From positions 1,856,694 through 1,920,693 of the forward strand of contig OZ239628.1 of assembly GCA_965195345.1 (NCBI GenBank): a stretch of DNA of 64,000 nucleotides, written 5' to 3'. The position numbers and the translations under genes were made by a program. The notes beneath the pieces were generated by a model. The model was given only the letters and a program-made list of their open reading frames with translations. It was not told the origin of the DNA and did not search any database. Below, one piece after another: positions 28,948 through 45,509 of this stretch. This stretch comes from an uncultured Thiomicrospira sp. GTDB lineage: Bacteria; Pseudomonadota; Gammaproteobacteria; CAKMZV01. Every line of letters begins with the position of its first letter. The stretch's first letter is position 1.

Positions 28948-31900
28948 TTACTCGCTGTCTGAAAATACTTCTTGAACAGCCTTTTCAGCCTCTTTGGATA
29001 AAGGAGCTTTGCTTTCTAAAGTATTTTCTGTGAAAACGTTTTCAATATTTTCTTCATTAGCTGAGATAGTTGAGTCTCCAAGAATGTCATGTAACTCTTC
29101 ATCTATCTTATCAACCGCACTATATCCCGCCATGTCTTCCATGAGAAGCCCTTTTCCTTTTCTGCGAGCTTGTGTTTGGTGATGACGCAAACCAGTACCA
29201 GACGGAATTAAACGACCTACGATAACGTTTTCTTTGAGACCGATCAGTTTATCACGCTTACCAAAAACAGCAGCATCAGTTAATACTTTGGTAGTTTCTT
29301 GGAATGAAGCCGCTGAAATAAAGGACTCTGTAGCCAAAGACGCCTTAGTAATACCTAATAGGATACGATCAAATTTAATGGGCTGTTTTCCTTCAGCAAT
29401 CAAGCTTTCATTCATTTGAAGAGCACGATGGTAATCGACTTGTTCTCCTTGAACCAAGAAAGCATCACCTGGATCAGCCACTTCAACTTTACGTAGCATT
29501 TGGCGAATGATAACTTCAATATGTAAGTCGTTAATTTTAACGCCTTGTAAGCGGTAAACACTTTGCACTTCATCAATGATGTAATTAGCAAGTGGTTCGA
29601 CTCCTTTAACACGCAAAATATCATGAGGATTAGGTGCACCATCAACTAATACTTCGCCTTTTTCAACATGCTCCCCTTCGAAAACATTGATTTGTCTCCA
29701 TTTTGGTATCAATATCTCAACCGAATTGTTTTTTAAATCCGTAATAATCAATCGATACTTTCCTTTAGTCTCTTTCCCAAAAGAAACCAGTCCGCTAATT
29801 TCAGCAAGAACGGAGGGTTCTTTAGGAATACGCGCTTCGAACAAATCTGCAACTCGTGGCAGACCGCCGGTAATATCTCTTGTTTTTGATGATGCTTGTG
29901 GAATCTTAGCCAAAATTGTTCCAGCTCCAACAGCATCTCCATCTTTGACGTTTACGAGAGCGCCACCTGATAAATAGTAGCTGACAGGCGTTTTTGTTCC
30001 AGTGAAGGTAACATCTTTTCCTTTTTTATCAATCAGTTTAATCATTGGGCGATTATCCTTCGCCCCTGCATCAACACTTTTATCTACAATGATCGATGTC
30101 AATCCTGTTATCTCGTCAGTGCTTGTATCAATTGTCTGACCTTCGATGAAATTAACAAACTTCACAGTACCGCCCATTTCTGTAATCATCGGGTGGGTAT
30201 GCGGATCCCATTCAGCAACAATGTCACCAGTTTTAACTTTACCACCATCTTTGACGTTTAATTGAGTGCCGTAAGCTAATTTATAATGTTCGCGCTGTCT
30301 CCCTTGCTTATCATGAACAAATAGTTCAGCTGAACGAGAGATATTCAATAAATCGCCATTTTGATTTTTAATAACTCGATGATTTTTGAGCGTTACTTTT
30401 CCGTTATTGTTAACAGAAATTTCCCTCTCAGCTGCTGCACGAGATGCTGCTCCGCCTATGTGGAAAGTTCTCATAGTCAACTGAGTACCCGGCTCACCAA
30501 TGGACTGAGCAGCGATAATACCCACTGCTTCGCCAATATTAACCAATTTTCCTCGCGACAAATCTCGTCCATAACTATGTCGTGACATGCCAAATTGTGT
30601 TGTATCAGTAATCGGAGAACGTACAAATATTTCATCAACACTGTGTTCATGCAATGCTTCTACTTGTGGCTCATCCAGCAGAACATTTGCCTCAAGTAAT
30701 ATTTCCTTTGTTCCAGGAATATATACATCTTTCGCCAAAACACGTCCAAGCACACGATCTTTTAGAGGTTCAACAATATCCCCACCACCAATCAAGGCTC
30801 CTTTAGCAATGCCTTCGTCTTTTGAGTATTCGCTTGTAGTTATTACTACATCCTGAGAAACATCTACCAATCGACGTGTTAAATATCCTGAGTTTGCTGT
30901 TTTCAATGCTGTATCTGCCAAGCCTTTACGAGCACCATGTGTCGAGGTAAAGTATTGCAGTACAGTTAATCCTTCACGGAAATTCGCGGTAATAGGCGTT
31001 TCAATGATAGAACCGTCTGGCTTCGCCATCAAACCCCTCATTCCAGCAAGCTGTCGCAGCTGAGCCATCGAGCCACGAGCACCTGAATCAGCCATCATAT
31101 AAATCGAATTGAACGATTTAACCTTGTGATGCACACCGCCTTTATCGGTTACATCATCAAACTCGATGATACCGATCATAGCTTTGGTTACTTTCTCATT
31201 AGTATGCGTCCAAATATCGATAACCTTGTTATATCGTTCTCCTTCAGTAAGCAAGCCACTTTGGAACTGCTTGTCCACTTCTTTTACTTGTTCTTCTGCT
31301 TGTTCGATCGCTTCTTTCTTCATGTCTGGAATAATCATATCATCAACACCAAATGATATACCAGAGCGCGTTGAATAGTGGAACCCAGCGTACATCAATT
31401 TATCAGCAAGAATCACTGATTTTTTGGGTCCAAGTGTGTGGAAACTTGCATTTAACAAAGCCGAAATATTCTTTTTCGTCATTAGCTGATCGACAATGCT
31501 AAACTTAAGCCCTTCTGGCAACAATTTCCATAATAAAGCCCGACCTACTGTCGTGTCTTTACGATTGATTTCTTCATTTCGTTCTCCTTCTTCATCGAAG
31601 GATACTTCTGTTATGCGCACCGTGATTTTTGCATGCAAACTTAATTCACCAATGACATACGCACGCTCAACATCATCAGGAGAGCTAAATATCATCCCCT
31701 CTCCTTTAACGTTGAATTGCTCACGAGTCAAATAATACAAACCGAGCACAACGTCTTGGGAAGGTACTATAATCGGTTCACCATTCGCTGGTGAAAGCAA
31801 ATTATTAGTTGACATCATCAGCACTCGAGCTTCTGTCTGTGCTTCTATTGACAAAGGAACATGCACCGCCATTTGGTCACCATCAAAATCCGCATTGTAT

Positions 31901-33264
31901 GCAGCACATACCAATGGATGCAGCTGTATTGCTTTCCCTTCAATTAATACTGGTTCAAAAGCTTGGATACCTAATCGATGCAAGGTGGGTGCACGGTTAA
32001 GTAAGATAGGATGTTCACGAATAACCTCATCCAAAGCATCCCACACTGATGGATCGCGCATTTCAAGCATCTTCTTTGCCACTCGAATCGTAGCAGCCTG
32101 TTCCTTACGAATAAGCACGCTAAATATGAATGGCTTGAATAATTCTAACGCCATAAGCTTAGGCAAGCCACATTGATGCAGTTTAAGATTAGGTCCAACC
32201 ACTATCACAGATCGCCCTGAATAATCAACACGCTTACCGAGTAAGTTTTGTCTAAATCGTCCCTGCTTGCCTTTAATCATATCAGCAAGAGATTTTAATG
32301 GACGCTTATTGCCCATTACTGCACGCCCTCTACGACCGTTATCAAGCAATGAATCAACGGCTTCTTGCAGCATACGCTTTTCATTACGAACAATAATTTC
32401 AGGTGCTCCTAAGTCAAGTAGGCGCCGTAAACGATTATTACGGTTTATTACACGACGATACAAATCATTTAAATCAGAAGTTGCAAAGCGTCCTCCCTCA
32501 AGCGGAACCAAAGGGCGCAGTTCTGGAGGCAATATGGGCAATACTTTTAGTATCATCCACTCGGGACGATTGCCTGACTCGAGTAAGGCCTGCGTTAGGC
32601 GCAACCGCTTTGATAATTTCTTACTTTTTGCTTCGCTTTTAGATTCTTCAAGCAAAATTTGCAGATTGAGTGCCTCTTCGCGCAAGTTAATTCTTGAAAG
32701 CAATTCGCCAATAGCTTCAGCACCCATGGCGACACGAAACTCTTCCCCATATTTTTCACGCGCCTCTAAAAGCTCTTCATCACGTAATATCTGCATGTTT
32801 TCAAGATCAGTCATTCCAGGATCAACCACTACAGATGCTTCGTAATATAAAATTATTTCAATTTCACGCAGCGTTTTATCCAATAGCAATCCAATACGCG
32901 ATGGCAATGATTTTAAAAACCAAATATGTGCAACAGGTGCTGCAAGATCAATATGTCCCATACGATCACGGCGAACCTTCATCTGTGTGACTTCTACTCC
33001 ACATTTTTCACAGACTACACTTCGATGCTTGATTCCTTTGTATTTGCCACATAAGCACTCAAAGTCTTTAGTTGGACCAAATATTTTGGCACAAAACAAT
33101 CCATCTCTTTCTGGCTTAAAAGTTCGATAATTTATCGTTTCGGGTTTCTTTACTTCACCAAACGACCATGAACGTATCTTCTCAGGAGAAGCAAGACCTA
33201 TACGAACAACATCAAAATTGGCGTGTAAATTCTGTTGCTTTAGCAAATTTAACATGTCTTTCAT
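28948..33264 (-). CDS. rpoC: DNA-directed RNA polymerase subunit beta'
   Basis: NADFDGD, N-terminal Zn ribbon CLC...[17 protein letters not shown]; ATG at 33264 fits the GGAG RBS. Confidence 0.99.
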
Positions 33265-33278
33265 TGTCAATATCTCCG

Positions 33279-36200
33279 TTAATCGTTGTCCATTTGAATA
33301 TCAATCCCAAGTGCTCTAATCTCTTTAAGCAGAACACCAAGCGACTCTGGTTTGCCAGACTCCATTGTGTGGTCTCCGTCAACGATGTTTTTGTACGTTT
33401 GAGTACGTCCCTGTAAATCATCAGACTTAACAGTCAACATTTCTTGTAAAGTGTGCGCTGCACCATATGCTTCAAGCGCCCAAACCTCCATTTCACCAAA
33501 GCGCTGTCCACCATATTGCGCCTTGCCTCCAAGTGGCTGTTGAGTAACCAAACTATAAGGGCCTGTAGAACGAGCATGCATTTTGTCATCAATTAAGTGA
33601 TTCAATTTCAACATATACATGTATCCAACTGTAACCTCTCGATCAAAAGGATCTCCTGTTTGACCATCGTACAGTTGAACCTGACCACTGGTTGGAACGC
33701 CTGCTGCTGTAAGTAATGCTTTAATTTGTGCTTCGCTTGCTCCATCAAAAACAGGCGTCGCAATAGGCAAACCTTCACGTAAGTTATTGGTCATTTCCAT
33801 CAAAGCATTATCTTTCAGAGAGCTAATCTCCTTGAGTTCTTCTTTAGAAGTATAAATCTCTTTAAGATATTCACGAACTTTTTTAACATTGGCTTTGTGA
33901 CGAATTAATTCATCAATCTTACGACCAATACCATAAGCTGCCATGCCCAAATGCGTTTCTAAAATTTGTCCCACGTTCATCCGAGAAGGTACACCGAGCG
34001 GATTAAGAACGATATCAACTGTTTCACCATTTGCATCATAAGGCATGTCTTCAATAGGGCATATACGCGAAACAACACCTTTGTTTCCATGACGCCCAGC
34101 CATCTTATCTCCTGGTTGAATACGTCTTTTAACGGCTACTAAAACTTTGACCATCTTAAGAACACCAGGTGAAAGCTCGTCGCCTTTAGTTATCTTACGT
34201 TTTTGTTCCTTGAATCGACTTTCAAGCTCTTCTTTTAACTGCACTAACTGCTGTTGGCTGGATTCAATCTGACGATTTTTTGCATCATCTTCGCAACGAA
34301 GATGCAGCACTTCATCATCATTAACTTTTGCCAATCGCGCTGCAGTAATAGACTTACCGTCTTCGTCTTTAGCATTGAGTAATAGTTCCCGTGAGCGAGC
34401 TATAAGGTTTCTTTGAACAATTTCATATTGATCGTCAAAGTCCTTCCTAAAACGTTCAATTTCTGCTTCTTCAATTTGCAATGCTCTGATATCTTTCTCT
34501 ACACCTTCACGGGTAAAAACTTGCACATCAACAACAGTCCCTTCCATTCCTGAAGGTACACGTAAAGAAGTATCCTTCACATCTGAAGCCTTTTCACCAA
34601 ATATGGCTCTCAACAATTTCTCTTCTGCTGACAACTGAACTTCACCTTTTGGGGTAACTCGTCCAACGAGAATGTCTGCTGGTTTTACTTCTGCACCCAC
34701 ACGTACAATGCCCGATTCATCAAGGTGTACCAATTGCGATTCACCCACATTTGGAATATCAGCACTGACTTCCTCATCGCCTAATTTAGTTGACCGAGCT
34801 TGACAAGTTAATTCTTCAATGTGAATGGACGTAAAGTAATCTTCACGCACTACTTTTTCGGAAACAAGCATGGAATCTTCAAAGTTGTATCCATTCCATG
34901 GCATAAAAGCGACTCGAATATTCTGTCCTAATGCCAATTCACCTAAATCAGTAGCTGATCCATCGGCTATAACATCACGTTTGTTTAGTATGTCTCCTGG
35001 TTGGACAATTGGCTTTTGATTAACACACGTATTTTGATTAGAACGTGAATATTTATGCAAGTTGTAAATATCAACCCCGACATCTCCTGGTTCAAGCTCA
35101 TTCGCATTGGCTCGAATAACCACACGAGACGCATCAACACTTTCAACAATGCCTCCTCGAGTAGCCGAAACCACGTTGCCAGAGTCGGTAGCTACGATAC
35201 GCTCCATCCCTGTTCCTACTAATGGTTTTTTTGCACGCAAAGTTGGAACGGCTTGGCGTTGCATATTTGAACCCATCAATGCACGATTAGCATCATCATG
35301 CTCTAAGAATGGAATAAGAGAAGCCGCTACGGAAACTAATTGCTTAGTGGAGACCTCAACCAAATTAATTTTACCTGGTGCGCAAACAGTCGTTTCATTA
35401 GCATAGCGACAAGGCAATAATTCCCCTTGCAATACTTTTTTATCATCAACTTCTACATTTGCTTGGGCAATATAAAATTGCGGTTCATCGATAGCTGAAA
35501 CAAAAATAATTTCATCGGTTATTTTTTTGTTTTTAACTTTGAAAAACGGTGTCTCTAAAAAACCATAGTCATTGACTTGGGCATAAATTGCCAATGAATT
35601 CATCAAACCAATATTTGGTCCCTCTGGTGTCTCAATTGGACAAATACGACCATAGTGCGTTGGATGTACATCACGCACTTCAAATCCCGCACGATCTCTT
35701 GTTAGTCCTCCAGGACCTAACGCCGAAATACGCCTTTTGTGCGTAATTTCAGACAATGGATTAACTTGATCCATAAATTGAGAAAGTTGTGAAGAACCAA
35801 AAAATTCTTTCAAAGCACCTGTAATCGGTTTGGGATTTACCAAATCTTGTGGCGACCAATCCTCAGCTTCAGCTAAAGATAAACGTTCACGAACCACGCG
35901 ATCTATTCTTGCAAGACCAGTTCTGCAAGCATTTTCTGCCAACTCTCCAACCGCTTTTACACGCCGATTTGCTAAGGTATCAATGTCGTCTACTTGACTG
36001 CGTCCATTTTTAATAGCGATCAACTCTCTAATTACATCGACAATATCTTCTTCTAGTAGAACAAGCGAGCCTTCATCAGAATCTCTATGAAGGCGACGAT
36101 TTAGTTTCATCCTACCGACAACAGACAAATCATATCGTTGATCATCAAAAAACAAGCTATCAAACAATCGGTTTGCAGCATCTTCTGTAGGAGGTTCTCC

Positions 36201-37337
36201 AGGACGGATAATACGATAAATTTCTATTCGGGCTTCAAGCGCTGTTTTAGTGGCATCATGCCTCAAGGTTTCAGAAAAATAAGCGCCATGCTCAAGTTCA
36301 TCAACGTAGAGAATATCAAGCTTTCCACTTCCTTTCTCTCGAAGCATTTCAACAACTTCTTCCGTAAGAATGTCATTGGCACGCAATATAGGCGTGTCGT
36401 TATTTTTGTCAAAAACATCATGAACGACCACCTTGCCAATTGCGTATTCATTGGGTATTGTGATACGTTTAATATCGTTTTCATTGAGTTCTTTGACGTG
36501 TCTTGAATTAATTACTTTGCCAGCCTCAACAACCACCTTACTATTAATTTTTATTGGGAATCCAGCGCGTAGACCTAACCAATCTTCAGGTTTGAAATTC
36601 ATCTGTAAATTGCGCTTAGTAAAATGGAGCTTGTTTGTCTTGAAAAATGAACGAAGCATTTTCTCGTTATCCATTCCCATAGCACGAAGCATTACAGAAA
36701 GTAAGAATTTACGGTGTCGATCAATCCGAGCATAAAGAATGTCATTGTGATCAAATTCAAAATCCAACCAAGAACCACGATACGGAATTACACGTGTTTG
36801 GAATAATATTTTCTGCGAAGAGTGAGAGCGTCCTTTGTCGTGAGTGAAAATAACCCCAGGGGAACGATGCAATTGCGAAACAACAACACGCTCAGTTCCA
36901 TTAACAACAAAAGCGCCCCCCTTAGTCATCATAGGGACTTCCCCCATGAAAACTTCTTGTTCTCGAATGTCTTTGATGACCTTATTACGATCTGTTGATC
37001 GTTCTTTATCGTACAATTTCAACCGAAGAGTAACGTACATAGGTATGGCAAAAGTCATACTACGTTGACGGCATTCGTCTTCGGAGTACTCAGGATTTCC
37101 CAATCGATAGGACAAATACTCTAAATCAGCTGTTCCCGCTACTCCCATAATGGGAAATATGGATTGAAAGGCGCCTTCAAGACCAACCTTATTTTTTTCC
37201 TCAATTGGTGTTTCTTTTTGCAAAAACTTTGCGAAAGATTTCTTCTGCAATTGCAGAAGATAAGGAATTTCCATCTTCGTAGGCAACTTGCCATACGTTT
37301 TACGAATACGTTTCTTTTCGGTGAAAGAAAATGTCAT
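33279..37337 (-). CDS. rpoB: DNA-directed RNA polymerase subunit beta
   Basis: SQLSQFMDQ Rif cluster, [21 protein letters not shown]. Confidence 0.99.
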
Positions 37338-37463: not shown

Positions 37464-37850
37464 TTACTTCAACTCAGCTTTTGCACCAGCCTCAACAAGT
37501 AGCTTAATTAATTCTTCAGCTTCAGTTTTGCTAACAGCTTCTTTAATTGTTGATGGGGCTCCGTCAACTTTTTCCTTAGCTTCTTTCAAACCAAGCCCAG
37601 TAGCAGTTCGAACTACTTTAATAACGCCGACTTTAGAACTACCAACTTCGCTTAGTACAACATCAAACTCTGTTTGTTCGACGCTTGCGGCTTCATCGCC
37701 GTCACCACCAGCAGCAGCGGGAGCTGCTACTGCAACTGAAGCTGCAGCGCTTACTCCAAATTTTTCTTCCATTGCAGAAATCAATTCCACAACTTCCATA
37801 ACGCTCATATTTGCGATAGCTTCTAAAATATCTTCTTTCTTTACAGCCAT
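37464..37850 (-). CDS. rplL: 50S ribosomal protein L7/L12
   Basis: [24 protein letters not shown]; start ATG 37850 with GGAG RBS. Confidence 0.98.
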
Positions 37851-37889
37851 TTTTAACTCCTTCTTATTGATAACCACGCTTGATGATAA

Positions 37890-38417
37890 TCAAGCAGCTT
37901 CTTTTGCTTCTTTCACAGCGGCAACTGTGCGAACCAATTTCCCTGGAACCTCATTAAGCGTACAAGCTAGTTTTCCTATCGGAGCTTGCATCACCGCCAT
38001 TAAGGTTGAAATTGCTTCTTCTTTATTAGGCAGCTTCGCCACCATATCCAGCTTCGATCCAGATATGACGCCACTTCCTAAAGAAATCCCAACTACTTTG
38101 AGAGCTTGATGATTACGACCCACCTTTTTAAATACCTTAGCGGCTTCGCCGGGACCATCATTTGAGAATGCCAAAATAAGTTGACCTTGTAGTACATCAA
38201 CCATTTCCGCATGCTTCGTGCCTTGAAACGCTCGACGAGCCAACGTGTTTTTAACCACGCGCACATCAACATTTGCTTCTCGTGCAGTTGAACGCAATTC
38301 CGTCAGGTCACTGACCGACATTCCACTATATTGAGCAGCCACGACAGAAGTAGCGCCTTCCAATCTGGACAACACCTCCTCAATAATGCCTTGCTTTTCT
38401 ACTCGTTTAAGTGCCAT
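37890..38417 (-). CDS. rplJ: 50S ribosomal protein L10
   Basis: VVKNTLARRA, LPNKEEAI; start ATG 38417. Confidence 0.97.
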   Translation of the reverse strand: MALKRVEKQGIIEEVLSRLEGATSVVAAQYSGMSVSDLTELRSTAREANVDVRVVKNTLARRAFQGTKHAEMVDVLQGQLILAFSNDGPGEAAKVFKKVGRNHQALKVVGISLGSGVISGSKLDMVAKLPNKEEAISTLMAVMQAPIGKLACTLNEVPGKLVRTVAAVKEAKEAA

Positions 38418-38489
38418 TGTGTTCCTCACATTGAGACAATACTTTTTAAGGCATTGCCTTTATATTATCATGTCTGAAAAGTATCAGAC

Positions 38490-38550
38490 ACTCCATCTAC
38501 GCAGGCAATTAAGTAATGGACAAACCCATTACCCCTGCGATCTTTGATGA
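38490..38550 (-). ncRNA. L10 leader (rplJL autoregulatory RNA)
   Basis: Minus strand AAAGATCGCAGG...TTAAT..CCTGCGTAGATGG matches the enterobacterial rplJ leader pattern; lies between rplA and rplJ. Confidence 0.8.
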
Positions 38551-38596
38551 CCGAGCCAGAAGCCTGGTCACCCTTTTTATGACTAATGTCAAAAAA

Positions 38597-39289
38597 TTAT
38601 TTAATCAGTTGAGAATGATCAACTGTCATGCCTGGTCCCATAGTAGAAGAAATGGTTACTTTCTTCATATAAACGCCTTTGGATGCATTAGGTTTTGATT
38701 TCTGTAAAGCGACAAGTAATGTTTTCAAATTCTCTTCAATCGCATCTTCACTGAATGACAACTTTCCAATGGAAGTGTGAATAATTCCACCTTTATCTAC
38801 TCTATACCGCACCTGCCCAGACTTAGCATTTCTCACTGCCTCGCCAACATCGGCTGAAACTGTTCCTACTTTAGGATTAGGCATCAACCCCTTAGGACCA
38901 AGTATTTGACCTAATTTACCTACCAACGGCATGGCATCTGGAGCTGCTATAATCACATCAAAATCAAGATGACCTTTTTTCACATCTTCCGCCAAGTCTT
39001 CAAAACCGACCACATCAGCGCCCGCTTCTTTTGCTTGATCTGCTAAATCACCTTGTGCGAAAACACCTACTCGAACTGTCTTTCCTGTTCCATTTGGCAA
39101 CACAGTAGATCCGCGTACTACTTGGTCTGATTTTCTTGGATCAACACCTAAGTTCACGGCAACATCAATTGCTTCATCAAATTTTGCTGGAAATGTCTTT
39201 AATAATGCAAGCGCATCAGTCACTGAGTAAACTAAGGTCTTATCAATAGATTGACGAGAAGACTTTATTTTCTTTGTTAATTTTGCCAT
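38597..39289 (-). CDS. rplA: 50S ribosomal protein L1
   Basis: [27 protein letters not shown]. Confidence 0.98.
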
Positions 39290-39720
39290 TACGACTCCTC
39301 CACTATTAGACCCATGCTAGTGGCTGTTCCAGCAATTATTTTAACTGCCGCATCCATATCATTAGCATTGAGATCAGTCATCTTTATAGTGGCTATCTCT
39401 TCAATTTGGGTTCTGCTAACTGTACCGACTTTATTTCTATTTGGTTCACCTGAACCCTTTGCAATACCTGCCGCTTTGCGTAATAATATTGCTGCAGGAG
39501 GTGTTTTGGTAATGAAATCAAAGCTGCGATCACCATAAACCGTTATCACTACAGGGATGGGCAAGTTTTTTTCCATCTCTTGAGTTTTTGCATTAAACGC
39601 TTTACAAAAATCCATAATATTGACCCCATGTTGTCCTAAAGCAGGACCAACAGGAGGGCTTGGATTTGCAGCACCTGCAGGTACTTGCAATTTAATATAA
39701 GCAGTTATTTTTTTTGCCAT
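39289..39720 (-). CDS. rplK: 50S ribosomal protein L11
   Basis: [20 protein letters not shown]; start ATG 39720. Confidence 0.98.
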
Positions 39721-39812
39721 ATCATTACTCCTTGGTGAGTGCAAACGCTTACTTAATTCAGCTCCTCATACTAAAAAACCAGCAACCTTGATATCAAGGG
39801 CTAGCGCTCTTT

Positions 39813-40346
39813 TTAACTTTTTTGGACTTGACCAGAATCCAATTCCACAGTGGTGGAACGACCAAAAATTAATACTGAAACATTGATTTTATTTTTGCTG
39901 TAGTCAATATTTTCCACAACCGCTTCAAAATCACTGAACGGCCCTTCCGTCACTCTGACAACCTCTCCTTCTTCAAACATTATCTTAGGTCTTGGGTTGT
40001 CTTCGCCAGCACGTATTCGATCAACGATAGCGTCCACTTCTGTTTTTGATATTGGAGTGGGTCGTAAATTTGTACCTCCTATGAAGCCCAGAACCTTAGG
40101 TACTTGTTTTACCAAATGCCAAGTGTCTTCATTCATATCCATTTCAATCAGTACGTAACCTGGGAAAAATTTGCGCTCAGTTGTGCGCTTTTTCTCTCCA
40201 CGAATTTCAACGACTTCTTCTGTTGGCACCAATATATCTCCAAAAAAAGCTTCCATCTGCTTTATGCCAATGTGCTCTCTAATGGAACGTACAACTTGTT
40301 TTTCAAAACCAGAGTAAGCATGAACGACATACCATTGTTTTGACAT
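39813..40346 (-). CDS. nusG: Transcription termination/antitermination factor NusG
   Basis: [21 protein letters not shown] motif GPFSDF, IFGR. Confidence 0.98.
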
Positions 40347-40467
40347 CTTAAAACCTCTTGTTAATGCGCTTCTAAACGCACAGAAAAATCGAATAAAATC
40401 TGCGAATCAATTCGCTCAAGTAGAAACTTACTACTAAAATCGCAAAAAACCATCTTCTTTAAAAACC

Positions 40468-40839
40468 CTATCGTCCTGCAATCAACTGTGTCAACCAAAG
40501 AAACAGACTATCAAGCAGCCATAGGAATATGGCAATAATAACAACAGCTATGACTACTGTTAAAGTAAGTTGAATGACTTCTTGGCGAGTAGGCCATACC
40601 ATTTTCCGTACTTCCGTACGTGACTCACCAACTAAGGACATTCCTTGCTTGCCCAGTGAGGTTTGGTAAACGATAGCAATGCTTACTCCTACCAGTCCAA
40701 TAAGCGCAAGGGCTCTCCACAATGTGGCTATTTGGTCTTCATACAGGTAAAAAGCAAATATTCCCGCCCCTAGAATAATTAACGCCAAAAACAACAGGGC
40801 TTTATCTGAGAAACTGGACTTATTTGACGTTTTTTCCAT
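40468..40839 (-). CDS. secE: Preprotein translocase SecE (3-TM type)
   Basis: EVRKMVWPTRQE; lies between tRNA-Trp and nusG. Confidence 0.96.
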   Translation of the reverse strand: MEKTSNKSSFSDKALLFLALIILGAGIFAFYLYEDQIATLWRALALIGLVGVSIAIVYQTSLGKQGMSLVGESRTEVRKMVWPTRQEVIQLTLTVVIAVVIIAIFLWLLDSLFLWLTQLIAGR

Positions 40840-40875
40840 AATTACTTTTTCTCTGTTCCTTTATTATTTTTTATC

Positions 40876-40952
40876 TGGCAGGGGTAGAGGGACTCGAACC
40901 CCCAACCTTCGGATTTGGAATCCGCCGCTCTACCAATTGGAGCTACACCCCT
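40876..40952 (-). tRNA. tRNA-Trp (CCA)
   Basis: AGGGGTGTAGCTCCAATTGGTAGAGCGGCGGATTCCAAATCCGAAGGTTGGGGGTTCGAGTCCCTCTACCCCTGCCA: cloverleaf, anticodon CCA, encoded CCA end. Confidence 0.97.
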
Positions 40953-40977
40953 TCAGGAAATTTTCACCCTATTTCAA

Positions 40978-40996
40978 GGGCGGGCGATTATACCGT
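40978..40996 (-). promoter_or_regulatory. sigma70 -10 (TATAAT) with GC-rich discriminator upstream of tRNA-Trp/secE
   Basis: Minus strand cggTATAATcgcccgccc. Confidence 0.6.
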
Positions 40997-41079
40997 ACAA
41001 AAAGAAATAAAATTAAATATTTTTAAAATACTGAAACTTACCTTTTATTTGTGCACTTTATCTTTGGAGTCTATTGTTG

Positions 41080-41676
41080 TTATTTTTTTTCGGTATTTTC
41101 TCGTTCCGACTCTGAATCAGCCTTTTCTTTTGCTTGAGTGCTCTCAGAAGAGGCCTGTTCATCATCAGCTGCAACCGTTTCTTCAATATTTTCCTCTACT
41201 GCCTCAACGGCAGCTTCTTCAGAAGTAACGGTTTCAACAGGTTTTTGTTTTTTAGCTTTTTCTACAGCAGGTTGTTCGATTTTCTTGGTCTTTTTTTCTT
41301 CTGGCGCACTAGACTCATCAACACTGTCAAGCAAAATAACCCAAGCCATAGGTGCTGAGTCAGACTTTCTAAATCCCGCCTTAAGAACGCGAATATAACC
41401 ACCTGGACGATCGTTAAATCGAGGACCAAGCTCTGCAAATAACTTACTTACTATTCCTCGCGAACGAAGGCGATTAAAAGCCAATCTTCTATTAGCTACA
41501 GTGTCTTTTTTAGCAAGAGTTATTAGTGGTTCTGCTACTCGACGAAGTTCCTTTGCCTTTGGCAAGGTGGTCTGAATTCTTTCATGTTCTATTAATGAAA
41601 GCGCTAAATTTCTAAACAGTGCCTTACGACTCGAGGCATCTCGATTCAACTGGCGACCGGAATTACGATGACGCAT
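41080..41676 (-). CDS. rplQ: 50S ribosomal protein L17 with acidic C-terminal tail
   Basis: [29 protein letters not shown]. Confidence 0.98.
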
Positions 41677-41708
41677 ATCTTATCCTATTTATTACAGTCT
41701 GGTAAAAA

Positions 41709-42713
41709 CTAAATTTGTTCAACTTGCCGAATTTTACTCGGTGGCCAATTCTCTATTTTTGTCCCTAGTTCAAGGTCCATTTCAACGAGCAATTTTTCAA
41801 TCTCTGTAAGTGATTTCTTTCCAAAATTTGAAATTCTCAATAGATCAGATCTTGATTTCTGCACTAAATCACCAATATAAGAGATGCTAGCATTTTTCAA
41901 GCAATTCGCAGATCGAACAGTCAATTCAAGATCGTCGACTGGGCGCAAATAAATCGGATCAACTTCTGCCTCCACTTCTTCATGCTTAGGCCTTTCAAAA
42001 GCTTTGATATCAACAAAAGACATCAACTGTCGATGCAATATATTTGCCGCTTTACAAATAGCATCTTTGGGTTTTATTGTCCCGTTTGTCTCTAAATTTA
42101 TGACGAGCTTATCAAGGTCATTACGTTGATCAACACGCACGTTATCTACTGTGTAATGTACTCGTCGAATCGGGCTATATAATGCATCAATCTGTAATGC
42201 GCCAACGTCCACTGTAGTCGAGTCTTCCTGCATCAGTTTTCTTGTGTTAATTGTCTCAAAGCCGATTCCACGAACGACTTTCAAGACGGCATTAAATGAA
42301 ACCTTTTTATTCAATTTAACCAATACCAGCTCTGGATTAGTTATTTCAACATTATGCGGCAATTCAATATCTGCAGCAGTAATGACGCAAGGGCCTTGTT
42401 TACTGACTTTTAGCTCAGTAATATCGCTTTCACCGTGCATAACTACAGCAACTTCTTTCAAATTTAGCAAGATATCAAGCACATCCTCTTGAACACCATC
42501 TATCGTTGAATATTCGTGATCCACTCCATCAATCTTAGCACTTACTACCGCTGAACCTGGAATTGATGAAAGCAAAACACGGCGCATAGCATTCCCCAAT
42601 GTATGCCCAAATCCTCTTTCTAAAGGTTCCAAAACGACCGTCGCTCTAAATTCATCCGTTTCTTTGATCTGTGAAAAATCGGGGGTTAGAAATTTCTCTA
42701 TATTTGTCTGCAT
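41709..42713 (-). CDS. rpoA: RNA polymerase subunit alpha
   Basis: [28 protein letters not shown]. Confidence 0.99.
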
Positions 42714-42781
42714 TCCCTGCTCCGTTAAACTGTTACGTTATGTGTTCTATCTTAATTAAGAAAATTGTATTTTTTAAAGAC

Positions 42782-43402
42782 TTACTTTGAATAAAGTTCT
42801 ACAATTAAGTGCTCTTCAATTTCGCTCGGCAAGTCAGAACGATCGGGATACCGTTTAAATGTTGCGTGCATTTTCTTTGCGTCAACTTCAATCCATTCAG
42901 ATCGAGGTGTTTGCTCAGCAATTTCAAGAGCAGTTTGTATTCTTTGTTGCCCTTGCTTACTTAAGCGCACGCTGACTTCATCACCTGGGCTTACTTGATA
43001 CGAAGCAATATTTACTACTGAGTTGTTGACTAAAATCCCTTTATGACTAACTAGTTGCCGTGCTTCAGATCGGGTTGAACCAAACCCACAACGGTATACT
43101 ACGTTATCTAAGCGACACTCAAGCAATTGAAGCAAATTCTCACCAGTTGAACCTTTGCGTCGTGATGCTTCTTTATAATAATTTCTGAATTGCTTTTCAA
43201 GCACACCGTACATCCGACGTACTTTTTGTTTTTGTCTCAACTGTGTACCATACTCTGTTAGTCTTCCGCCCCTCGCTCCATGTTGACCTGGAGGTGTGTC
43301 TAGTTTGCATTTAGACTCGAGCGTACGAAGACCACTTTTAAGAAATAAATCCACACCCTCTCTTCGAGCGAGTTTGCATTTTGGTCCAATAAATCTTGCC
43401 AT
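42782..43402 (-). CDS. rpsD: 30S ribosomal protein S4
   Basis: [18 protein letters not shown]. Confidence 0.99.
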
Positions 43403-43417
43403 TATTCTTGTTCTCCT

Positions 43418-43810
43418 TTATACACGACGTTTTTTGGGAGGTCTACACCCATTGTGTGGCATTGGTGTTACATCAGTGATGCTGGTTACCTTTAAACCAG
43501 CAGAATTTAGTGCACGCACTGATGACTCTCGACCAGGACCAGGACCTTTAACTTGTACAGAAACATTCTGAACACCAAATTCTTTAGCTTTCTCAGCTGC
43601 ATTATTTGCCGCTATTTGAGCTGCAAAGGGCGTGCTTTTACGAGATCCTCTAAATCCTGAACCACCAGCGGTTGCCCAGCACAAAACATTGCCTTGAGGA
43701 TCGCTAATTGTAATGATCGTGTTATTAAACGATGCATGAATGCTAGCAACGGCATCACTAACAATACGATTACGCTTTTTTGAGCGTACAGCCTTTTTTG
43801 TTTTAACCAT
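43418..43810 (-). CDS. rpsK: 30S ribosomal protein S11
   Basis: [26 protein letters not shown]. Confidence 0.99.
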
Positions 43811-43831
43811 GTTTTTATATTCTCAATTTCA

Positions 43832-44188
43832 TTAACGCTTAATAGGACGACGAGGCCCTTTTCGAGTACGCGCGTTGTTTTTAGTTTTCTGACCTCTTAC
43901 GGGAAGATTTCGACGGTGTCGAATTCCTCTATAAGTTCCTAAATCCATGAGCCGTTTAATATTCATCGAAACTTCACGCCTCAAATCACCTTCCACTTTG
44001 AATTCAGTGATTACTGTTCGAATACTCTCCAACTCTTGTTCGGTTAGTTCCGAGGTTTTTTTAGATGCCTCAATGCCTACTTTTGAACAGATTTGTTTTG
44101 ATAATGTATGACCAATGCCATATATAGATTGCAAAGCAATAACTATGTGTTTTCTGTCCGGTATGTTAATTCCTGAAATACGCGCCAT
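43832..44188 (-). CDS. rpsM: 30S ribosomal protein S13
   Basis: [24 protein letters not shown]. Confidence 0.99.
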
Positions 44189-44201
44189 AAAGTGTTACTC
44201 C

Positions 44202-45509
44202 CTATCTTGAAACTTGCGCTTTTTTTAATAAACCTTCATATTGACTGGATAGTAAATGTGATTGCAACTGCGTCATGAAATCCATCACAACAACAACTAT
44301 TATCAATAACGAAGTTCCTCCAAAATAAAAAGGAACGTTCCAGTACAAAATTAAGAACTCAGGCAATAGGCAAACGCCTGCAATATAAATAGATCCAGCT
44401 AAAGTCAAACGAGTCATAACGCTATCAATGTAGCCTGCTGTTTGCTCGCCAGGTCGAATGCCTGGAAGAAATGCTCCTGAGCGACGTAAATTATCAGCTG
44501 TCTCTCTCGGATTAAAAACGATCGCAGTATAGAAAAAGCAAAAGAAAATAATTGCACAGCCATAAAACAAGACGTACAAAGGCTGTCCAGGTCCTAACGT
44601 CGTAGCTATATCACGCAACCATTGAAGTGAGTTTGCAGAACCTAACCAATTACCTAACGTCGCTGGAAATAAAATAATACTTGATGCAAATATTGGAGGA
44701 ATTACACCAGCCATGTTTAGTTTTAGAGGAAGGTGGGAAACCTGCCCACCATACATTTTACGTCCACGCTGTTTTTGAGCATACTGAACAGTTAGACGTC
44801 TCTGTCCCCTTTCTGCAAAAACCACAAAAGCTGTAACCCCTAACGTCAGCGTTAACAGAATAATTAGCAATAAACCGTTCAATTCACCTGTTCTTACTAG
44901 CTCAAAGGTTCCACCAAGAGCAGAAGGTAAACCAGCAACAATTCCTGCAAAAATGATTAAAGAAATTCCGTTGCCAATACCTCGTTCAGTAATTTGCTCA
45001 CCTAACCACATTAAAAATATAGTGCCGGTAAGCAAGGTGATAACTGTCGTTAGTTTAAAGAGCAGTCCCGGTGCAATAACAACGGGCAACCCACCTGCAC
45101 TTTGAGACTCAAGAGCAATTGCAACACCCAGGCCTTGAAAGGTGGCAAGTACAATTGTTCCATAACGTGTATATTGAGTAATGCGTCTTTGTCCGCTTTG
45201 TCCTTCTTTTTTCAATTGTTCCAAACTTGGTACAACCGCGGTCATCAATTGCATAATAATAGAAGCTGAAATATACGGCATAACTCCTAATGCAAAAATA
45301 GATAGCCTTTCAAGCGCACCCCCAGAAAACATATTAAACATATCAAGGATCGTTCCTCTTTGTTGTTCAAACATAGAGGCTAAAGCAGTGCCGTCAATGA
45401 AGGGAATTGGAATATGCGTTCCAAGTCGATAGACAACAAACGCACCCAAAACAAACAGTATTCTATTGCGCAACTCTGTTGTTACTGAGCCCATAGGATT
45501 ACTAGCCAT
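44202..45509 (-). CDS. secY: Preprotein translocase SecY
   Basis: [31 protein letters not shown]. Confidence 0.99.

What the first reader, a model, noticed from the sequence alone, without database searches (positions are those of the whole stretch)
30574..30828. RNA polymerase beta' has lost all four cysteines of its second zinc site
Seen (checked at codon level): [15 protein letters not shown] and [22 protein letters not shown] align without gaps to E. coli DLVVTEDDCGTHEGI and [22 protein letters not shown]. So C814 to Y, C888 to D, C895 to S and C898 to S, while the N-terminal Zn ribbon (CLC..CEKC) is intact. Known: this Cys4 site is strongly conserved in bacterial beta' and linked to folding and assembly. 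Four concerted in-frame substitutions are unlikely to be sequencing error. Inference: a naturally one-zinc RNA polymerase stabilised without metal at this site, possibly a zinc-sparing adaptation.
Basis: partly seen in the sequence, partly recalled or inferred. Interest (0 to 1): 0.75.

Follow-up and report, generated by a model that had tools for sequence, protein, structure and literature searches.

The report
RNA polymerase missing its second zinc site
A small group of probably marine bacteria makes a normal-looking RNA polymerase whose second structural zinc site has been replaced by ordinary polar residues, alongside zinc-free versions of two ribosomal proteins and a polymerase partner, which suggests core machinery built to need less zinc.

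Summary
The only rpoC of this 1.92-Mb genome (window 28948-33270, minus strand) reads Y815/D889/S896/S899 where E. coli beta' has C814/C888/C895/C898. The alignment is gapless, and the N-terminal zinc ribbon is intact. Contigs from a second sample show no differences, so this is not an error. All 5 species of the GTDB order carry x/D/S/S with the same codon families. Outside the order, 33/33 related gammaproteobacterial families, 80/80 named genome loci, 117/117 nearest database proteins and 347/347 assessable class genomes keep the cysteines. The loss is not unique: a Phycisphaerales-like clade of Planctomycetota has C/S/S/D. This scan has also noted second-site loss on other DNA (Saccharibacteria, large phages); I did not check those notes. 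I found no paper describing it. The zinc-sparing idea gains circumstantial support. All 5 order genomes have only type-B (Cys-free) L31, only type-B L36 and a DksA lacking 2-3 of its 4 zinc cysteines. Each trait is a minority state in other families. ClpX, DnaJ and overall cysteine content are normal. This is one lineage, and metal content is untested. Verdict: a real, ancient, lineage-wide variant of a known enzyme; interest 0.6.

The parts
28948..33270 (-). rpoC, RNA polymerase beta' subunit. 1440 aa counted from the TTG at 33270; the likely ATG start is at 33264, giving 1438 aa. The end coordinate includes the stop codon.
   Evidence: NCBIfam TIGR02386 scores 1724.7 bits against a cut-off of 963.5. 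PDB beta' chains match at E = 0. It is the only match in the genome.
33001..33057 (-). Intact N-terminal zinc ribbon (Zn1): C72, C74, C87, C90 in [19 protein letters not shown].
   Evidence: It is also kept in the full-length order proteins P0003 and P0004 and their cluster members.
30859..30933 (-). [25 protein letters not shown] (residues 780-804), nearly invariant. From my recall, this is the bridge helix that ends just before Zn2 ligand 1.
   Evidence: Invariant columns. The structural name is recalled, not taken from a call.
30820..30831 (-). Remodelled first zinc knuckle. Canonical D-C-G-T reads E814-Y815-S816-K817. Position 815 (E. coli C814) is Y, I, Y, F or G in the five species.
   Evidence: In the 39 other sequences D, G and T are invariant; in the order G816S is 5/5 and D814E is 4/5.
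30607..30819 (-). Small domain (residues 818-888) that the zinc site would close. It is still predicted as a folded module.
   Evidence: AlphaFold2 of residues 760-960 gives 10-residue pLDDT blocks of 69-93 for residues 810-899. The best Foldseek matches are E. coli and P. aeruginosa beta' chains.
30574..30606 (-). Former C-x6-C-x2-C knuckle, now D889-x6-S896-R897-x-S899 (E. coli C888, C895, C898).
   Evidence: The codons are GAT, TCN and AGT in all five species. R897 is invariant in the order.
30451..30534 (-). [25 protein letters not shown]... (from residue 913). From my recall, this is the N-terminal trigger-loop helix that starts just after the former zinc site. It carries the order-specific change V918I.
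   Evidence: The structural name is recalled.
33279..37337 (-). rpoB, immediately upstream in the same operon.
   Evidence: Pfam RNA_pol_Rpb2 domains 1-7.
44189..44204 (-). 16-nt gap between secY and rpsM, where from my recall rpmJ (zinc-type L36) normally lies. It is empty here.
   Evidence: ORF coordinates and Pfam. The only L36 gene of the genome is type B and lies outside the window.

Best explanation
rpoC encodes a working beta' subunit in which the second structural zinc site was lost once, in the common ancestor of this small gammaproteobacterial order. In other bacteria four cysteines hold a zinc ion that staples the stretch after the bridge helix to the stretch before the trigger loop. 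Here that staple is most likely replaced by a metal-free network of polar and charged side chains: E814, S816, D889, S896, R897 and S899. Beta' would then fold and assemble without zinc at this site, and the enzyme would carry one zinc (the N-terminal ribbon) instead of two. The change most likely belongs to a hard-wired low-zinc version of the abundant transcription and translation proteins. The same genomes have only the zinc-free forms of L31 and L36 and a DksA2-like DksA. Shown here: the substitutions, their fixation and conservation, their rarity, and the co-occurring zinc-free proteins. Inferred: the absence of metal, the side-chain network, and zinc scarcity as the cause.
For: Fixation and purifying selection after the change:
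- 5/5 species of the order (3 genera) read x/D/S/S, with GAT, TCN and AGT codons throughout.
- Their RpoC sequences form one clade with 100% SH-aLRT support on a long stem in a quick tree.

The protein otherwise looks functional:
- It is single-copy and has no internal stop.
- It scores 1724.7 bits against the rpoC model.
- Zn1 is kept.
- The order proteins P0001, P0003 and P0004 average 64.5% identity to 36 other gammaproteobacterial beta' proteins.

The site is normally under strong constraint:
- CCCC in 33/33 other families, 80/80 named genome loci and 117/117 other nearest proteins.
- 345 of 401 class genomes carry the canonical DNA pattern for sites 3-4. Among them are genomes of 0.3-0.9 Mb (G028, G242, G388, G044, G305, G351).

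Zinc economy in the same genomes:
- L31 is type B and Cys-free in 5/5 order genomes, against 4/36 other genomes.
- L36 is type B in 5/5, against 1/33.
- DksA lacks 2-3 of its 4 cysteines in 5/5, against 6/34.
- The curated names 'type B L31' and 'type B L36' pass their cut-offs.
- The usual rpmJ slot in the window is empty.

The loss is targeted rather than general:
- Genome-wide cysteine is 1.14% of crude ORF residues.
- The ClpX CxxC..CxxC site and the four DnaJ CxxCxGxG motifs are intact.

Literature (passages read):
- Zinc shortage makes RpoC accumulate in inclusion bodies in a Cupriavidus zupT mutant (PMC12632275).
- Cys-free L31 and L36 paralogs and two-cysteine DksA2 are accepted zinc-sparing devices (PMC11672702).
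Against: - No metal measurement exists, and the model gave no coordinates, so the proposed side-chain network is inference.
- The link to zinc economy rests on one lineage, and relatives are not independent.
- G020 has type-B L31, type-B L36 and a DksA2-like DksA yet keeps CCCC, so those traits do not require the beta' change.
- The Phycisphaerales-like clade lost the site too, and I could not test its ribosomal proteins.
- Earlier unchecked scan notes report the loss in Saccharibacteria and phages, where causes other than zinc supply were proposed.
- FolE2-only is common among relatives: 22/36 others also lack FolE, so it adds nothing.
- Position 815 is unconstrained (Y/I/F/G).
- The long RpoC stem (0.51 changes per column) would also fit relaxed or accelerated evolution.
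- The habitat is known only from unchecked earlier notes.
- One zinc per polymerase is a small saving in atoms.
Confidence: 0.5

Rival explanations
1. Neutral or compensated loss unrelated to zinc supply. In a fast-evolving, small-genome lineage the staple became dispensable after other stabilising changes. The cysteines then drifted to whatever polar residues were tolerated. The zinc-free L31, L36 and DksA are independent losses of redundant paralogs during genome reduction.
For: - Long stem branch of the order's RpoC (0.51, against a median tip length of 0.32).
- Lower identity to other Gammaproteobacteria along the whole protein (64.5% against 76%).
- Site 1 is free to vary.
- Genomes are only 1.8-2.1 Mb.
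- Each zinc-free trait also occurs sporadically elsewhere without the beta' change.
- The site is also missing in a Planctomycetota clade.
Against: - Far more reduced and divergent genomes (0.3-0.9 Mb) keep the canonical pattern, so drift alone rarely removes it.
- D, S and S, and even their codon families, are invariant across three genera.
- Four independent zinc sites all going the zinc-free way in 5/5 genomes is not what random paralog loss predicts, since each state is a 3-18% minority among the other genomes.
Confidence: 0.3
2. Protection from oxidation. Cys4-zinc sites are attacked by oxidants, and a Ser/Asp version makes beta' folding insensitive to thiol oxidation.
For: From general chemistry (recalled), zinc-thiolate sites are redox-sensitive. 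The review passages read describe the DksA zinc site as a redox sensor.
Against: - Zn1 of beta', ClpX and DnaJ all keep their Cys4 sites.
- Total cysteine content is normal.
- The same review states that zinc-free DksA2 is more, not less, reactive to peroxide.
Confidence: 0.08
3. The site still binds a metal, but through oxygen ligands (D889, E814/E817, S896, S899). That would be Mg, Ca or Mn instead of zinc.
For: Three acidic residues lie near the site in four of the five species (E814, E817, D889).
Against: - In the window's own protein position 817 is Lys, and R897 is invariant, which favours salt bridges over a cation site.
- G003 has S814.
- From my recall, serine is a poor metal ligand.
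Confidence: 0.07
4. Artefact or dead gene: a sequencing or assembly error, a pseudogene, or a second non-essential copy.
For: None found.
Against: - Single copy and open frame.
- Identical contigs in a second sample.
- The same state in four other species.
- Normal rpoB-rpoC operon context.
Confidence: 0.01

Closest known systems
Canonical second zinc site of bacterial beta' (E. coli C814/C888/C895/C898). Markov et al. 1999, Genes Dev 13:2439; I saw only its title in a reference list, and the paper itself is not held.
   Same: Same protein, same positions and a gapless alignment. The surrounding bridge-helix and trigger-loop motifs are intact.
   Different: All four cysteines are replaced, and the D-C-G-T knuckle is remodelled to E-x-S-E/K. 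From my recall, mutating these cysteines in E. coli blocks assembly, whereas here the Cys-less state is the fixed wild type.
Zinc-sparing C-minus proteins: type-B L31 (YkgM) and L36 (YkgO), and DksA2 (review PMC11672702, passages read).
   Same: A structural Cys4 zinc site in an abundant protein of the gene-expression machinery is replaced by non-ligand residues while the fold is kept. The same genomes carry these very proteins.
   Different: The known cases are second copies switched on by Zur when zinc is short. Here beta' is the only copy, and so are the type-B L31 and L36. No zinc-type partner was found, and only one Fur-family gene is present. No zinc-free beta' is mentioned in the held part of that review: 0 occurrences of 'RpoC'.
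Beta' of a Phycisphaerales-like clade of Planctomycetota (found here).
   Same: Zn1 is kept and the Cys4 of Zn2 is lost. Again Ser, Ser and Asp occupy three of the positions. All 120 nearest proteins and 7 metagenome loci show this.
   Different: Different pattern: site 1 usually keeps Cys (111/120), sites 2-4 read S/S/D instead of D/S/S, an extra Cys sits just before site 3, and YGRDL becomes YGMDM. Different phylum, so an independent event. Looser relatives at 54-63% identity are canonical.
Zinc-free RNA polymerases noted earlier in this scan: Saccharibacteria (e1-2116584, e1-5263520) and large phages (e.g. e1-5802935). These are AI notes that I did not check.
   Same: They are reported to lack the four Zn2 cysteines.
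   Different: They are reported to have lost Zn1 as well (the phages have lost all cysteines). The causes proposed there are unrelated to zinc supply. Here only Zn2 is lost, in a protein 64.5% identical on average to other gammaproteobacterial beta'.
Adenylate kinase lid domain (recalled, not tested here): Cys4-zinc in many Gram-positive bacteria, replaced by a His/Ser/Asp/Thr hydrogen-bond network in E. coli.
   Same: A structural zinc knuckle is replaced by Ser/Asp-type residues with the fold retained. It serves as a model for how D/S/S could work.
   Different: A different protein; this is an analogy only.

Membership tests
Bacterial RNA polymerase beta' (RpoC, NCBIfam TIGR02386) | Full-length match above the curated cut-off | tested here: met
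   1724.7 bits against a cut-off of 963.5. PDB beta' chains match at E = 0 over residues 3-1374.
Bacterial RNA polymerase beta' (RpoC, NCBIfam TIGR02386) | Catalytic NADFDGD motif and an intact open frame | tested here: met
   [13 protein letters not shown] is present and there is no internal stop. Open frame of 1450 aa with no stops inside.
Bacterial RNA polymerase beta' (RpoC, NCBIfam TIGR02386) | rpoB-rpoC operon context and single copy | tested here: met
   rpoB ends 8 nt before the rpoC ORF, and rplKAJL lies upstream. There is one match in the genome.
Bacterial RNA polymerase beta' (RpoC, NCBIfam TIGR02386) | N-terminal zinc ribbon CxC...CxxC (Zn1) | tested here: met
   C72, C74, C87 and C90.
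Canonical two-zinc beta' | Four cysteines at E. coli positions 814, 888, 895 and 898 (Zn2) | tested here: not met
   Y815, D889, S896 and S899 in a gapless alignment.
Zinc-sparing C-minus proteins (as defined for L31B, L36B and DksA2) | Zinc-ligand cysteines replaced while the fold is kept | tested here: met
   Substitutions. The domain is predicted as folded (pLDDT 69-93) and matches beta' structures, although that model is weak evidence.
Zinc-sparing C-minus proteins (as defined for L31B, L36B and DksA2) | Exists beside a zinc-binding paralog and is induced by Zur under zinc shortage | tested here: not met
   One rpoC only. There is one Fur-family gene of unknown specificity. Regulation could not be tested.
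Zinc-sparing C-minus proteins (as defined for L31B, L36B and DksA2) | The protein is metal-free and functional at low zinc | not testable with these tools
   This needs metal analysis and biochemistry.

The most novel reading that the evidence does not exclude
An entire order of probably marine Gammaproteobacteria runs a hard-wired low-zinc gene-expression apparatus. Structural zinc has been removed from the ribosome (L31, L36), from DksA and from the assembly-critical second site of RNA polymerase beta', with no zinc-type back-ups and possibly no Zur switch. The beta' change would be the last and rarest step of that path. It would protect polymerase folding from zinc shortage, and it points to a short, transplantable sequence solution (E-x-S-E/K ... 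D-x6-S-R-x-S) for a zinc-independent polymerase.
Probability: 0.35. Interest if true: 0.75.

Novelty: new variant of a known kind. Interest (0 to 1): 0.6.

Why it matters
From my recall, and from the passage read, the second zinc site of beta' is treated as a firmly conserved feature needed for folding and assembly of bacterial RNA polymerase. A natural enzyme about 65% identical to those of well-studied Gammaproteobacteria that lacks this site is a ready-made test of what the zinc does. The roughly 100-residue segment can be swapped into E. coli beta', and assembly, pausing and zinc dependence can then be measured. The polymerase also joins the list of abundant zinc proteins with zinc-free forms. 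Here that form is not a stress-induced spare copy but the only copy, alongside type-B-only L31 and L36 and a DksA2-like DksA. If the link holds across the independent lineages that lost the site, it would show that trace-metal supply can reshape even the catalytic core of transcription.

Tried and rejected
- **Organism name.** It returned 80 other Proteobacteria and none of the order. Cluster look-ups gave no names.
- **Metagenome scan for the order's motif.** A degenerate DNA pattern for T-D-T..G-x-S-R-x-S-Y-G-R-D found 0 stretches in the JGI contigs.
- **P0270.** This 229-aa Logan fragment has Ala at all four sites and looked like a third lineage. Its 120/120 nearest full-length relatives (Lactobacillaceae by their source names) are CCCC. 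I treat it as an unexplained single fragment, not as a lineage.
- **Apparent variants among the 150 representatives.** Six (P0164, P0220, P0231, P0241, P0254, P0271) turned out to be alignment shifts or insertions with the cysteines present. P0212 (C to W at site 2, 156-aa fragment) and P0213 (garbled stretch around site 1) look like errors. P0266 is truncated.
- **General cysteine avoidance.** Rejected: cysteine is 1.14% of the crude ORF set.
- **FolE versus FolE2.** G000-G004 lack FolE, but so do 22/36 other genomes, so this does not discriminate.
- **'ZnuA' ABC transporter.** It sits beside a DtxR/MntR-type repressor and may carry manganese, so it is not used as evidence on zinc uptake. No ZIP transporter was found.
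- **L31, L36 and DksA in the Phycisphaerales-like clade.** The records behind those loci are not held, so the test was not possible.
- **Structure.** The isolated 201-residue model has a mean pLDDT of 61 and low-confidence flanking helices, and no coordinates are returned. Side-chain contacts could not be examined.
- **Expression.** No RNA holder is listed for this stretch.
- **Markov et al. 1999.** The paper could not be read because it is not held.
- **Class screen.** 51 of 401 genomes gave no RpoC-segment match at all and were not assessable.
Full report
**The gene**

Window 28948-33270 (minus strand) is a 1440-codon frame starting at a TTG. The same protein is in the public collection as 1438 aa beginning at the ATG two codons later (P0002). 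I number from the TTG.

- It matches the curated rpoC model at 1724.7 bits (cut-off 963.5) and solved beta' chains at E = 0.
- It follows rpoB by 8 nt, in the order secE-nusG-rplK-rplA-rplJ-rplL-rpoB-rpoC.
- It is the only rpoC match in a single-contig genome of 1,920,693 bases that is 99.7% complete.

**The observation**

- Residues 780-930 align without a gap to E. coli beta' 779-929.
- Y815, D889, S896 and S899 therefore stand where E. coli has C814, C888, C895 and C898.
- The N-terminal ribbon (C72, C74, C87, C90) is intact. The protein has only three other cysteines.
- Contigs of a second sample cover all four codons with no difference (run X2). That sample is from the same study, so the support is only partly independent.

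**How far the state extends**

- The GTDB order of this genome holds five species in three genera. All five have D, S and S at sites 2-4, and Y, I, Y, F or G at site 1.
- The codons are GAT, TCN and AGT in every species. TCN and AGT are each one step from TGY.
- In a quick maximum-likelihood tree of about 1100 residues the five sequences form one clade. It has 100% SH-aLRT support and sits on a stem of 0.51 changes per column (the careful tree did not finish). G001 and G002 are almost identical, so there are effectively four sequences.
- This points to one loss in the common ancestor, followed by strict conservation of D/S/S and free drift at site 1.
- The neighbouring knuckle is remodelled too. 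D-C-G-T, which is invariant in 39 other sequences, becomes E-x-S-E/K. R897 and I918 are fixed in the order.

**How rare it is**

| Set examined | Result |
|---|---|
| Related genomes of other gammaproteobacterial families | 33/33 with a match read CCCC; 3 had no match (G010, G021, G027) |
| Named loci from the species-genome collection | 80/80 CCCC |
| Other listed hits among 5.8 billion clustered proteins | 117/117 CCCC; the only Cys-less hits were the window's own protein and two order proteins |
| 401 gammaproteobacterial species, DNA pattern for C-x2-C-[YF]-G plus I-G-E-P-G-T-Q at fixed spacing | pattern found in 345 |

The 56 genomes without the DNA pattern break down as follows:

- 3 are order members.
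- 1 is canonical but cut by a contig end (G377).
- 1 has a frame-broken gene with Cys at site 2 (G186).
- 51 show no RpoC segment at all and cannot be judged.

So 347/347 assessable genomes outside the order keep the sites. These counts include three unpublished genomes (G043, G298, G144). Genomes of only 0.3-0.9 Mb keep the pattern.

**It is not unique**

I searched 1.84 billion representatives with a profile of the five Cys-less segments. Of the best 150:

- 145 are canonical: 139 by script, and 6 more after I read the alignments.
- 3 are fragments or garbled sequences.
- 2 lack the cysteines.

One of those two, P0270, is a lone 229-aa fragment whose 120/120 nearest relatives are canonical. 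I set it aside.

The other, P0243, leads to a clade that its sources name Phycisphaerales, Phycisphaerae or Planctomycetota.

- All 120 nearest proteins have exactly one cysteine in the 20-residue stretch.
- In the 40 rows I printed, sites 2-4 read S, S and D, and the single cysteine sits just before site 3.
- 111/120 keep a cysteine at site 1.
- Seven metagenome loci show the same pattern. 73 other loci from that scan, including four at 54-63% identity, are canonical.
- Zn1 is kept there too.

Earlier notes of this scan report second-site loss in Saccharibacteria and in large phages. I did not test those notes.

**Is it in print?**

Six paper searches found no description of a natural beta' without this site (I saw listings and abstracts). 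The held part of a 2024 review of bacterial metal homeostasis does not mention RpoC. Markov et al. 1999 is not held.

**Testing the zinc-sparing idea**

The genome shows no general avoidance of cysteine or of zinc fingers.

- Cysteine is 1.14% of a crude ORF set.
- ClpX keeps CxxC...CxxC, and DnaJ keeps its four CxxCxGxG motifs.

Three abundant zinc proteins are present only in their zinc-free forms.

- **L31.** The single L31 gene has no cysteine and passes NCBI's 'type B L31' model.
- **L36.** The single L36 gene passes 'type B L36'. The usual rpmJ slot between secY and rpsM in the window is a 16-nt gap.
- **DksA.** It reads CxxT...CxxE, where 28 other genomes read CxxC...CxxC. This is the DksA2 pattern described in the review passages.

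Baseline over the same 40 relatives:

| Trait | Order genomes | Other genomes |
|---|---|---|
| Type-B L31 | 5/5 | 4/36 |
| Type-B L36 | 5/5 | 1/33 with a match |
| DksA lacking part of Cys4 | 5/5 | 6/34 with a match |

- Only G020 combines all three traits, and it keeps the beta' cysteines.
- FolE2 without FolE is too common to count.
- One Fur-family gene and no ZIP transporter were found.
- The ZnuA-family transporter lies beside a DtxR-type repressor and may carry manganese.

**Reading**

The order combines every zinc-free alternative I tested, plus the much rarer beta' change. This fits a hard-wired zinc economy in the abundant transcription and translation proteins. A passage read in PMC12632275 says that zinc shortage drives RpoC into inclusion bodies in a Cupriavidus zupT mutant. 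That would make beta' folding a plausible target of selection.

The case remains circumstantial.

- It rests on one lineage.
- The beta' stem branch is long.
- The independent Planctomycetota loss could not be tested for the other traits.
- The habitat is known only from unchecked earlier notes mentioning DMSP-demethylation genes.

**Mechanism**

No cysteine or histidine is conserved near the site. H898 occurs in only three of the five species. Zinc binding there is therefore very unlikely.

I propose that E814, S816, D889, S896, R897 and S899 tie the two former knuckles together by hydrogen bonds and a salt bridge. This would resemble the zinc-free lid of E. coli adenylate kinase (recalled).

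The AlphaFold2 model of residues 760-960 predicts the enclosed domain with pLDDT 69-93, and it matches E. coli beta'. It gives no coordinates, so the network is inference.

**Verdict**

This is a real, ancient, lineage-wide variant of a well-known enzyme. It is rare but recurrent, and I did not find it in print. The genome context makes the zinc-sparing reading testable. Interest 0.6.

Noticed in passing
window 43835-45509: secY (44205-45509) is followed after 16 nt by rpsM (43835-44188). The rpmJ gene that from my recall normally lies between them is absent. The genome's only L36 gene is type B and lies elsewhere (G000:C1:418926-419045).
   Followed up: yes
window 37464-45509: The alpha operon (secY-rpsM-rpsK-rpsD-rpoA-rplQ) runs directly into secE-nusG-rplK-rplA-rplJ-rplL-rpoB-rpoC on the same strand. 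This joins two ribosomal/polymerase clusters that from my recall lie apart in E. coli.
   Followed up: no
P0243 and relatives; loci L250-L255 and L267, around positions 2001-2312: In the Phycisphaerales-like beta', sites 2-4 read S/S/D, a conserved Cys sits one residue before site 3, and YGRDL is changed to YGMDM. Site 1 usually keeps its Cys.
   Followed up: partly
P0270 (229-aa protein from a 1.5-kb Logan contig): A Lactobacillaceae-like beta' fragment has Ala at all four zinc positions. It also has Cys where its relatives have Ser (TADCGYL, AAQCIGEPG). It is 77% identical to its nearest relative. Its origin is unexplained.
   Followed up: partly
P0254 (1274 aa), about residues 640-690: This beta' has an insertion of about 35 residues right after zinc site 1. 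The insertion carries its own CPKCG...CQYCG pair, possibly an extra zinc ribbon.
   Followed up: no
G000:C1:485409-489010 (locus L248): In the ZnuA-family ABC transporter cluster, the permease (416 aa) is fused to a DtxR-type metal-binding/dimerisation domain. A separate DtxR/FeoA-domain repressor is encoded divergently next to it.
   Followed up: no
G001 and G002 DksA (loci L206, L207): DksA of these two species keeps only one of the four zinc cysteines (C-S-S-A). G000, G003 and G004 keep two.
   Followed up: partly
G186:C4:37311-37769 (loci L331, L332, L334): The rpoC region of this gammaproteobacterial genome is broken into three frames with two TAG codons. This could be an assembly error or a damaged gene.
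   Followed up: no
class screen: 51 of 401 gammaproteobacterial species genomes gave no match at all to the highly conserved RpoC segment. Some are rated 100% complete (G164, G280, G370, G021, G027).
   Followed up: no
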